Assembly (NCBI RefSeq): GCF_022369475.1 | Contig: NZ_CP059600.1 | Span: 1,630,686-1,694,685, forward strand | Reading direction: 5' to 3' | DNA: 64,000 nt | Origin: Campylobacter sp. RM12651 | GTDB taxonomy: Bacteria > Campylobacterota > Campylobacteria > Campylobacterales > Campylobacteraceae | Part shown: in pieces, positions 19,252-19,926 of the stretch | Numbering within the stretch: the first letter of the stretch is position 1 | Layout of the letters: each line of letters opens with the position of its first letter | Notes under the pieces: generated by a model | What the model saw: only the letters and a program-made list of their open reading frames with translations | The model's database searches: none | Told to the model about the DNA's origin: nothing | Program-made: the position numbers and the translations under genes

Positions 19252-19926
19252 ATGAATATTTTATTGCTTGAAGATGATTATTTATATGCTACTAGTATTT
19301 GTGAATATTTGCAAGATTTAGGATTTAGTGTTGATGTTTTTAGTGATGGCGACTTAGCCTGTAAAACTATCGCAAATAAATTTTATCATCTTTATATACT
19401 TGATATAAAAGTAATAAATACTAATGGCTTTGATGTATTAAGTTATATAAAAAGCTTAAATATTACTAACCCTATTATGATGATGACTTCAAGAACTGAT
19501 ATAGCAAGTATTAAAAAAGGATATGAGCTAGGCTGCAATGAATACCTTAAAAAACCTTTTGAACTAGATGAATTAAAATATAGAATTAAAGAATTATTAA
19601 AACAATTTTTTAACACTCAAAGTAATGATACAATCACAATTTCAGGCGAGTTTGTATATGATTATATTTCTAAAAGTCTTAGCAAAAATAAAACTCTAAT
19701 AGAGCTTACTAGTAAAGAAATCACATTGATTGAATATTTGTTAAGCAATAAATCAAGTTATGTAAATGTAAGCAGTATTTATGAATATGTATGGGGGGGG
19801 GCAAATGAAGAATTTGAAACCAATGGCTCAAGCGATGTAAGAGTATATGTAAAAAGAATTAGAGCAAAAACTTGCGATGATTTTATAATATCATCTAGAG
19901 GACTTGGCTATAAAATCAATGTCTAA
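19252..19926 (+). CDS. OmpR-family response regulator (receiver plus winged-helix)
   Basis: N-terminal receiver domain (LLLEDD..., D at about position 51, KKPF) and a C-terminal wHTH (VRVYVKRIRAK...SRGLGYKI). RBS aaggaag. Contains an in-frame G9 tract. Confidence 0.85.
   Translation: MNILLLEDDYLYATSICEYLQDLGFSVDVFSDGDLACKTIANKFYHLYILDIKVINTNGFDVLSYIKSLNITNPIMMMTSRTDIASIKKGYELGCNEYLKKPFELDELKYRIKELLKQFFNTQSNDTITISGEFVYDYISKSLSKNKTLIELTSKEITLIEYLLSNKSSYVNVSSIYEYVWGGANEEFETNGSSDVRVYVKRIRAKTCDDFIISSRGLGYKINV
19793..19801 (+). repeat. homopolymeric G9 tract inside the response-regulator CDS (encodes W-G-G-A)
   Basis: gtatggggggggggca read directly. With nine G the wHTH C-terminus is in frame. 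Confidence 0.9.

What the first reader, a model, noticed from the sequence alone, without database searches (positions are those of the whole stretch)
19793..19801. Phase-variable-type G9 homopolymer inside an OmpR-family response-regulator gene
Nine consecutive G encode W-G-G-A just upstream of the winged-helix DNA-binding domain. With nine G the frame yields a canonical OmpR C-terminus (VRVYVKRIRAK...SRGLGYKI). A slip of plus or minus 1 would truncate the DNA-binding domain. Poly-G/C tracts of this length are the classical contingency-locus mechanism in Campylobacter, but usually in surface-structure genes. A slippage-prone tract in a two-component regulator would switch an entire regulon stochastically; the adjacent kinase gene and the 1371-aa secreted-protein gene downstream are the likeliest targets.
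Basis: partly seen in the sequence, partly recalled or inferred. Interest (0 to 1): 0.65.

Follow-up and report, generated by a model that had tools for sequence, protein, structure and literature searches.

The report
Slippery G9 tract switches a regulator
A run of nine G's inside a two-component response-regulator gene of an undescribed Campylobacter species really does change length (8, 9 or 10 G) between otherwise near-identical isolates, so the regulator is whole in some strains and truncated in others; this is a new example of a known kind of genetic on/off switch.

Summary
The G9 tract at 19793-19801 is real. It is in frame (W181-G-G-A184) in a 224-aa OmpR-family response regulator (19252-19926), and it is far beyond chance: about 0.001 runs of 9 or more G are expected per 64 kb. 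It lies inside the winged-helix domain, between helix a2 and recognition helix a3, not upstream of that domain. Public assemblies of the same unnamed Campylobacter species carry G8 (195-aa product), G9 (224 aa) and G10 (185 aa). The off alleles sit on at least four SNP backgrounds, and the downstream genes stay intact. One haplotype occurs as both G9 and G10 within a single series of metagenome-like runs. The two other 9-mers in the window are intergenic and also vary between isolates. Close relatives (78-82% identical regulators) and 84 more distant orthologous loci lack the tract. GGG is the organism's rarest Gly codon. The tract is therefore a true hypermutable repeat that gives on and off alleles of a regulator. 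Within-clone switching, reversibility and the regulon were not shown. Linkage to the 1371-aa orphan ORF rests on adjacency only. The principle is already known (bvgS, flgR/flgS, mga), so this is a new member of a known kind.

The parts
19793..19801 (+). Poly-G tract (G9 in this genome). It is the hypermutable repeat, and G9 is the in-frame 'on' length.
   Evidence: Searches show the sequence. Searches show G8, G9 and G10 in other isolates. One search shows one interrupted allele, G6AG2.
19252..19926 (+). OmpR/PhoB-family response-regulator gene, 224 aa. It has a receiver domain (3-112, with D8 D9 D51 T79 K101 conserved) and a winged-helix domain (150-221).
   Evidence: Pfam, orthologue alignment with invariant columns, PDB alignments. 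NCBIfam scores are below every equivalog cut-off.
19919..20974 (+). Cognate sensor histidine-kinase gene, 351 aa, with two TM segments plus HisKA and HATPase_c. Its ATG overlaps the regulator's stop codon (ATGTCTAA).
   Evidence: Pfam, hydropathy and sequence, gene calls of 351 aa in L004, L008, L010 and L094-L097.
21050..25165 (+). 1371-aa lineage-restricted orphan ORF with a signal-peptide-like N-terminus. It lies 75 nt after the kinase gene with no predicted terminator between them. It is a possible co-transcribed or regulated gene, by adjacency only.
   Evidence: No Pfam or NCBIfam hit. Only 4 clusters match among 5.8e9 proteins. Synteny in L096 and L097 but not Cr9. No terminator.

Best explanation
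The G9 run is a hypermutable simple-sequence repeat that makes this OmpR-family response regulator a translationally phase-variable gene. In its 'on' length (G9) the gene encodes a full regulator. Slipped-strand mispairing during replication adds or removes one G, and the reading frame then ends 3 codons (G10) or 12 codons (G8) after the tract. That removes recognition helix a3 and the C-terminal wing, so the protein can no longer bind DNA. What is shown: the tract, the frame consequences, the G8/G9/G10 alleles on several backgrounds within one species, and similar variation at the two other poly-G tracts in the window. What is inferred: (a) the changes occur at high frequency and reversibly within a clone, as measured for poly-G tracts of this length in C. 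jejuni; (b) off cells lose transcriptional control of this system's target genes, so a population holds subpopulations with and without the regulon; (c) early termination also lowers kinase synthesis, because the kinase ATG overlaps the regulator's stop codon and has no well-placed Shine-Dalgarno of its own; (d) the adjacent orphan secreted-type protein is a candidate target.
For: Exact look-up found the predicted 195-aa (G8) and 185-aa (G10) products in NCBI and Logan records of sister isolates. It did not find the G7, G11, G6 or G12 products. DNA of 21 loci from the same species: G9 in 13 loci plus the window, G8 in L011 and L106, G10 in L012, L013, L102 and L103, and G6AG2 in L116. Some loci are probably the same isolate assembled twice. 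The SNP table places the off alleles on at least four haplotypes. The S123N haplotype is G10 in runs SRR10083277 and SRR10083279 and G9 in SRR10083280 and SRR10083281. In off isolates the kinase and the 1371-aa ORF are still called intact, which fits a switch better than operon decay. NCBI and Logan assemblies both hold the same truncated product, called on contigs of different lengths: the 195-aa G8 product on contigs of 14,998 and 14,684 bp, and the 185-aa G10 product on contigs of 49,203 and 14,684 bp. L012 and L013 share an identical SNP pattern. The other two 9-mers also vary: the SulP-side tract is G8 x2, G9 x4, G10 x3 in 9 loci, and the murB-side tract is G9 or G10. GGG makes up only 8% of Gly codons, and the tract sits in a loop of variable length and sequence. 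Relatives read WNN, WIN or WGS there, and G183E occurs naturally. So the run is not needed for the protein. Poly-G/C tracts are the established driver of phase variation in Campylobacter (PMC6321876, PMC8355987).
Against: No read-level data were available, so within-culture heterogeneity, switching rate and reversibility are not shown. G9 dominates (about 70% of loci), which would also be expected if off alleles were merely tolerated defects. The tract is restricted to one species. Regulators 78-82% identical and 84 more distant orthologous loci lack it, so there is no long-term conservation to argue for selection. The tract lies 80% of the way along the gene, whereas contingency tracts are usually thought of as lying near the 5' end (my recollection, not checked here). 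The regulon and the signal are unknown. The promoter scan and the search for repeated binding-site motifs gave nothing.
Confidence: 0.78

Rival explanations
1. The tract is a non-adaptive mutational hotspot. It arose by chance or drift in a permissive loop. The G8 and G10 alleles are simply loss-of-function mutations of a dispensable regulator, perhaps enriched by laboratory culture, and not an evolved bet-hedging switch.
For: The tract is species-specific and absent from all relatives examined. G9 is the majority allele. An interrupted allele exists, showing the run can be lost without harm. No phenotype is known.
Against: In a 28% GC genome a G9 built from the rarest Gly codon should decay quickly, yet it is kept at 8-10 G on all backgrounds but one, including a lineage that is 1.2-1.5% divergent across the gene. 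The run-length distribution has no G/C runs of 6-8 but three of 9, which suggests long tracts are maintained. Off alleles also occur in metagenome-like (uncultured) runs. Downstream genes remain intact in off isolates.
Confidence: 0.17
2. The length differences are sequencing or assembly artefacts at a homopolymer, and all isolates really carry G9.
For: Homopolymers are error-prone in sequencing, and every record examined is a short-read draft assembly or metagenome contig.
Against: The same truncated G8 and G10 products are on record both in NCBI assemblies and in the separately made Logan assemblies, on contigs of different lengths, and L012 and L013 share an identical SNP pattern. Off alleles recur in several independent runs and backgrounds. 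Two other tracts show the same +/-1 variation in different combinations across samples. A consensus call reflects the majority of reads.
Confidence: 0.03
3. The tract works mainly at the RNA or ribosome level, through transcriptional slippage or programmed frameshifting. A single allele would then make both the full-length regulator and a receiver-only protein in a fixed ratio, without needing DNA change.
For: Long homopolymers can cause RNA-polymerase slippage (general knowledge). Both shifted frames end within 3-12 codons, giving clean receiver-only products.
Against: DNA-level length variation is directly observed and is enough to explain the alleles. To my knowledge, documented slippage sites are mostly A/T runs. 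No stimulatory RNA structure was found near the site or at the gene junction (z = -0.02).
Confidence: 0.05

Closest known systems
Bordetella pertussis bvgS poly-C tract (C6/C7), which drives phase variation of the BvgAS virulence two-component system (Stibitz et al. 1989, as described in PMC1891110)
   Same: A homopolymeric G:C tract lies inside the coding sequence of a two-component system gene. A +/-1 slip truncates the protein and turns the whole system off.
   Different: There the tract is in the sensor kinase and is only 6-7 bases long, and the regulon and phenotype are known. Here it is in the response regulator's DNA-binding domain, is 8-10 bases long, and the regulon is unknown.
Campylobacter jejuni FlgR/FlgS phase variation (Hendrixson 2006, 2008, as summarised in PMC8355987)
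   Same: Same genus. A response regulator and its kinase are switched by indels in homopolymeric tracts, with effects on a regulon (flagellar genes).
   Different: FlgR is known as an NtrC-type sigma-54 activator (my knowledge; the review consulted says only that sigma-54 and FlgSR control the flagellar genes). Its tracts are short poly-A/T runs (under 7), and the review describes those mutations as not reversible. The present gene is OmpR-type (no match to a Sigma54 activator domain) and has a classical long poly-G tract.
Poly-G/C contingency genes of Campylobacter (the 'phasome'; PMC6321876)
   Same: Same repeat type and length (G8-G11), same translational on/off logic, and same pattern of differing tract lengths between isolates.
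   Different: The catalogued genes are mainly for surface-structure modification, plus hypothetical proteins and chemoreceptors. No two-component response regulator appears in the main text or in the held supplement of that genus-wide survey.
Group A Streptococcus mga poly-C tract (Lei et al. 2023, cited in PMC11868660) and the C. difficile cmrRST invertible switch (PMC6837544)
   Same: Phase variation acts on a transcription regulator or signal-transduction system, so many downstream traits switch together.
   Different: Mga is not a two-component regulator. cmrRST is switched by site-specific inversion of an upstream element, not by a repeat in the coding sequence.

Membership tests
OmpR/PhoB-family response regulator | N-terminal receiver domain with the phospho-acceptor Asp and the acidic pair, Thr/Ser and Lys | tested here: met
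   Pfam Response_reg at 3-112, E 1.4e-20. D8, D9, D51, T79, S80 and K101 are invariant in the 16-sequence alignment.
OmpR/PhoB-family response regulator | C-terminal winged-helix (Trans_reg_C) DNA-binding domain | tested here: met
   Pfam Trans_reg_C at 150-221, E 1.4e-11. Full-length alignments to DrrD, BasR/PmrA, RegX3 and MtrA structures.
OmpR/PhoB-family response regulator | Adjacent cognate histidine kinase | tested here: met
   HisKA plus HATPase_c ORF at 19919-20974, overlapping the regulator's stop codon. The pairing is conserved in all relatives examined.
Named orthologue (PhoB, OmpR, PmrA, CopR, CpxR and others) | Score above the NCBIfam equivalog cut-off | tested here: not met
   The best hit is TIGR01387 at 117 bits against a cut-off of 279. 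All equivalogs score far below their cut-offs.
SSR-mediated translational phase-variable (contingency) gene | Homopolymeric G/C tract of hypermutable length (about 8 or more) inside the reading frame | tested here: met
   G9 at codons 181-184.
SSR-mediated translational phase-variable (contingency) gene | Gain or loss of a repeat unit shifts the frame and truncates the product | tested here: met
   Computed products of 185 and 195 aa. The same products are annotated in NCBI genomes.
SSR-mediated translational phase-variable (contingency) gene | Tract length differs between closely related isolates while the flanks stay the same | tested here: met
   G8, G9 and G10 with 0-2 mismatches in the gene, and at least four independent off backgrounds.
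SSR-mediated translational phase-variable (contingency) gene | High-frequency, reversible switching within a clonal population | not testable with these tools
   No raw reads or cultures were available. The only indirect support is the same S123N haplotype occurring as G9 and G10 in neighbouring runs of one series.
SSR-mediated translational phase-variable (contingency) gene | A phenotype that switches with the tract | not testable with these tools
   The regulon and the signal are unknown.
C. jejuni FlgSR-type phase-variable system | NtrC-family regulator with a sigma-54 activation (AAA+) domain | tested here: not met
   Pfam finds only Response_reg and Trans_reg_C, and the protein is 224 aa long.

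The most novel reading that the evidence does not exclude
The switch may not be simply on/off. It may toggle the protein between a DNA-binding regulator (G9) and a stable receiver-only protein (G8 or G10, which keeps the receiver domain plus helices a1-a2). Such a protein could still be phosphorylated and could act as a phosphate sink or a dominant-negative dimer partner. At the same time, kinase synthesis would fall through loss of translational coupling. That would be a stochastic rewiring of signalling, not just silencing of a gene. This could explain why the tract sits late in the gene rather than near the 5' end.
Probability: 0.12. Interest if true: 0.65.

Novelty: new member of a known kind. 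Interest (0 to 1): 0.5.

Why it matters
Phase variation in Campylobacter is usually thought of as varying individual surface structures. A classical long poly-G tract in a two-component transcription factor means that a single slippage event could switch a whole set of genes. The same logic applies to bvgS in Bordetella and to phasevarions. Natural on, off and 'locked-on' (G6AG2) alleles already exist in public isolates, so the regulon and the selective conditions could be studied directly with existing strains. The value is limited because the species is undescribed, its host and the system's signal are unknown, and the principle itself is established.

Tried and rejected
It neither named the species nor recovered close relatives. 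Its loci did serve as a negative set.
2. Literature searches for the strain names and accessions found nothing, so the host and ecology of the organism remain unknown.
3. An exact-pattern scan of JGI metagenomes for G7-G11 variants found nothing.
4. The promoter/terminator scan found fewer promoter-like sites than in shuffled sequence and no terminators, so it is uninformative about operon structure.
5. A search for direct repeats, as candidate OmpR-type binding sites, upstream of the regulator gene and of the large ORF found none.
6. An RNA fold of the regulator/kinase junction was no more stable than shuffles.
7. AlphaFold2 models of both halves of the 1371-aa ORF from a 5-sequence alignment were unusable (pLDDT 29 and 48), so no fold search was run.
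8. Orthology to a named regulator was rejected by the NCBIfam cut-offs.
9. I considered that the 44-48-aa 'helix-turn-helix' proteins annotated in off isolates might be real restart products. I rejected this as likely annotation artefact: no ribosome-binding site is evident, and the fragment holds only helix a3 plus the wing.

Full report
OBSERVATION

Window positions 19793-19801 are nine consecutive G. They lie in frame in ORF 19252..19926 (+ strand, 224 aa) and cover W181 (TGG), G182 (GGG), G183 (GGG) and the first base of A184 (GCA). Pfam finds a receiver domain at residues 3-112 and a Trans_reg_C winged-helix domain at 150-221. The phospho-acceptor residues D8, D9, D51, T79 and K101 are invariant among orthologues.

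The window has 27.8% GC. No other G run exceeds 5 bases. The only long C runs are two C9 tracts, and no G/C run has a length of 6, 7 or 8. The expected number of G runs of 9 or more in 64 kb is 0.0008-0.0018.

One detail is wrong in the finding. The tract is inside the DNA-binding domain, not just upstream of it. Alignments to the solved regulators DrrD (1kgs) and BasR/PmrA (8jo2, 4s04) place W181-G-G at the end of helix a2 and the start of the a2-a3 loop. The recognition helix (DVRVYVKRIRAK) and the wing follow it.

CONSEQUENCE OF SLIPPAGE

G10 gives a 185-aa product that ends ...WGGGK. G8 gives a 195-aa product that ends ...WGGQMKNLKPMAQAM. Both keep the receiver domain and the first part of the winged-helix domain, and both lose helix a3 and the wing.

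DIRECT COMPARATIVE EVIDENCE

The exact 224-aa protein is on record from 'unclassified Campylobacter' genomes. An exact-sequence look-up of the predicted slipped products found both:
- the 195-aa G8 product in Campylobacter sp. RM12642, and with one changed residue in the out-of-frame tail in RM12647;
- the 185-aa G10 product in RM9333, and on an S123N background in Logan assemblies.

Those genomes also carry orphan 44-48-aa 'helix-turn-helix' fragments. The G7, G11, G6 and G12 products are not on record.

I fetched the DNA of 21 loci from the same species. Tract lengths were:
- G9 in 13 loci (L001-L010, L104, L105, L117), as in the window itself;
- G8 in L011 and L106;
- G10 in L012, L013, L102 and L103;
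- the interrupted, in-frame run GGGGGGAGG (G183E) in L116.

Some of these loci are probably the same isolate assembled twice, so the number of independent isolates is smaller.

Outside the tract, the gene differs by 0-2 bases in the first 13 loci. The SNP table places the off alleles on at least four haplotypes, so slippage has occurred repeatedly. The S123N haplotype is G10 in runs SRR10083277 and SRR10083279 and G9 in SRR10083280 and SRR10083281. These belong to one series of metagenome-like runs.

The truncated G8 and G10 products are on record both in NCBI assemblies and in the separately made Logan assemblies, on contigs of different lengths. L012 and L013 share an identical SNP pattern. 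This argues against an assembler artefact. In off isolates the kinase gene and the 1371-aa ORF are still called intact.

THE TRACT IS A PROPERTY OF THE DNA, NOT A NEED OF THE PROTEIN

GGG is the rarest glycine codon in this window, at 8% of Gly codons in 41 long ORFs. The tract lies in a loop of variable length and sequence. Regulators that are 78-82% identical read W-N-N, W-I-N or W-G-S there, with AT-rich codons. G183E occurs naturally. None of 84 orthologous loci from other Campylobacter, Sulfurospirillum and Arcobacter-group genomes (about 1 Mb) has a G/C run of 7 or more in the regulator or kinase gene.

GENERAL HYPERMUTABILITY OF POLY-G IN THIS ORGANISM

Both other 9-mers in the window are intergenic, and both vary between isolates.
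- The minus-strand G9 at 16619-16611 lies 116 nt upstream of the SulP/STAS permease start. It is G8 (2 loci), G9 (4) or G10 (3) in nine loci.
- The minus-strand G9 at 55290-55282 lies immediately 5' of TATTATAAT. It is G9 or G10.
- Tract lengths at the different sites combine independently. For example, GCA_018501205.1 has regulator G9 with SulP tract G10, and SRR20653220 has regulator G8 with SulP tract G8.

CONTEXT

The kinase ORF is 351 aa, with two TM segments plus HisKA and HATPase_c. It starts at an ATG that overlaps the regulator's stop codon (ATGTCTAA). The nearest purine-rich stretch (AGAGGA) lies 16 nt upstream of that ATG. Kinase translation is therefore probably coupled to the regulator, and would fall when ribosomes stop 80-110 nt earlier in off alleles. 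This is an inference.

The 1371-aa ORF follows after 75 nt with no predicted terminator. It has a signal-peptide-like N-terminus and no further hydrophobic segment. It has no Pfam or NCBIfam match. Only four clusters match it among 5.8 billion proteins, at 99, 84, 66 and 34% identity.

The regulator-kinase-large ORF arrangement recurs in close relatives despite different upstream flanks. However, in Campylobacter sp. Cr9 the large ORF at that position is unrelated by tblastn, and distant orthologous systems have nothing similar. The idea that the large ORF is the target therefore rests on adjacency in a narrow clade. Structure prediction of the ORF failed (pLDDT 29 and 48).

The assembly breaks just upstream of the regulator gene in nearly all drafts are explained by a 16S rRNA gene at 17387-18895.

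MECHANISM

The best-supported reading is classical translational phase variation by slipped-strand mispairing, as established for poly-G/C tracts in Campylobacter (PMC6321876, PMC8355987). Here it is applied to a transcription factor.
- Shown: the tract, the frame consequences, recurrent natural G8/G9/G10 alleles, and hypermutability of sister tracts.
- Inferred: high-frequency reversible switching within clones, loss of regulon control in off cells, and reduced kinase synthesis.

Rival readings are scored in the report sections: a non-adaptive mutational hotspot, a sequencing artefact, and RNA-level slippage. The hotspot reading is the only serious rival. It differs from the best explanation only on whether the variability is selected.

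COMPARISON WITH WHAT IS KNOWN

The principle has precedents:
- bvgS in B. pertussis, with C6/C7 in the kinase gene (PMC1891110);
- flgR and flgS in C. jejuni, with short A/T tracts that the review describes as non-reversible (PMC8355987); FlgR is, to my knowledge, an NtrC-type regulator;
- mga in group A Streptococcus, with a poly-C tract (cited in PMC11868660);
- cmrRST in C. difficile, with an invertible element (PMC6837544);
- phasevarions (PMC11868660).

The genus-wide Campylobacter phasome survey lists chemoreceptor genes but no two-component response regulator in its text or held supplement. Full-text searches found no report of a poly-G tract in an OmpR-type regulator. The strains themselves are not mentioned in any held paper. 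The regulator scores below every NCBIfam equivalog cut-off, so it is a generic OmpR-family member with no named orthologue.

VERDICT

Novelty is 'new member of a known kind', and interest is moderate. The case is clean and naturally documented: a classical contingency tract sits inside a two-component transcription factor, and on, off and locked alleles are already in public strain collections. But the organism is undescribed, the regulon is unknown, and the concept is established.

Noticed in passing
window 16611-16619 (C9 on + strand, G9 on - strand): An intergenic poly-G tract lies 116 nt upstream of the SulP/STAS permease start (ATG 16495, preceded by AAGGA) and is followed by TTATAGTATTATAC. 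Its length is G8, G9 or G10 in nine loci from other isolates, and a neighbouring T run also varies (tatt/tattt). It is probably a promoter-located (transcriptional) phase-variable tract.
   Followed up: partly
window 55282-55290 (C9 on + strand, G9 on - strand): An intergenic poly-G tract sits immediately 5' of a perfect -10-like TATTATAAT on the minus strand, downstream of the murB-like gene and upstream of an SNF-family transporter ORF. It is G9 in L098 and L100 and G10 in L099. A possible 33-aa hydrophobic small ORF (TTG near 55213, after AAGGA) follows it.
   Followed up: partly
window 53627-55000 (- strand): The SNF-family (sodium:neurotransmitter symporter) ORF has no start codon upstream of its conserved ...AGGAVGLGNAWKFP... 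motif. The first in-frame start lies after the motif (ATG 54865). A well-placed AAGGAG-N6-ATG sits in another frame and stops after 8 codons. Gene calls in L099 and L100 start at the same place. Either the 5' end is frameshifted or the gene uses an unusual start.
   Followed up: partly
window 17188-18895 (- strand): A complete 16S rRNA gene (17387-18895) and tRNA-Ile(GAT) (17188-17264) are followed by the SulP gene rather than by tRNA-Ala and 23S rRNA. The rRNA genes therefore appear to be unlinked at this locus. This repeat also explains why nearly all draft assemblies break 114-304 bp upstream of the regulator gene.
   Followed up: no
window 21050-25165: The 1371-aa ORF is a lineage-restricted orphan, with only 4 matching clusters among 5.8e9 proteins. 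It is K/N/S-rich, and the low-confidence model of its C-terminal half is mostly beta-strand. It evolves faster than the neighbouring regulator: in what appears to be the same contig (both 39,297 bp), the ORF is 66% identical and the regulator 79%. In Campylobacter sp. Cr9 an unrelated 873-aa ORF occupies the slot. This is a variable 'large secreted protein' position next to a conserved two-component system.
   Followed up: partly
L104 versus L105, between the kinase gene and the large ORF (window about 20975-21049): There appears to be a one-base length difference in the A/T-rich intergenic region. The large ORF starts at 1911 in L104 and 1912 in L105, although both loci carry G9. This hints that A/T runs near the large ORF's putative promoter also vary.
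   Followed up: no
L116 (SRR31861004), tract position: A natural interrupted allele, GGGGGGAGG (G183E, in frame), lies on a 1.5%-divergent background. L117 has the same background and keeps G9. It is either a possible 'locked-on' variant or an error in a low-coverage 942-bp contig.
   Followed up: partly
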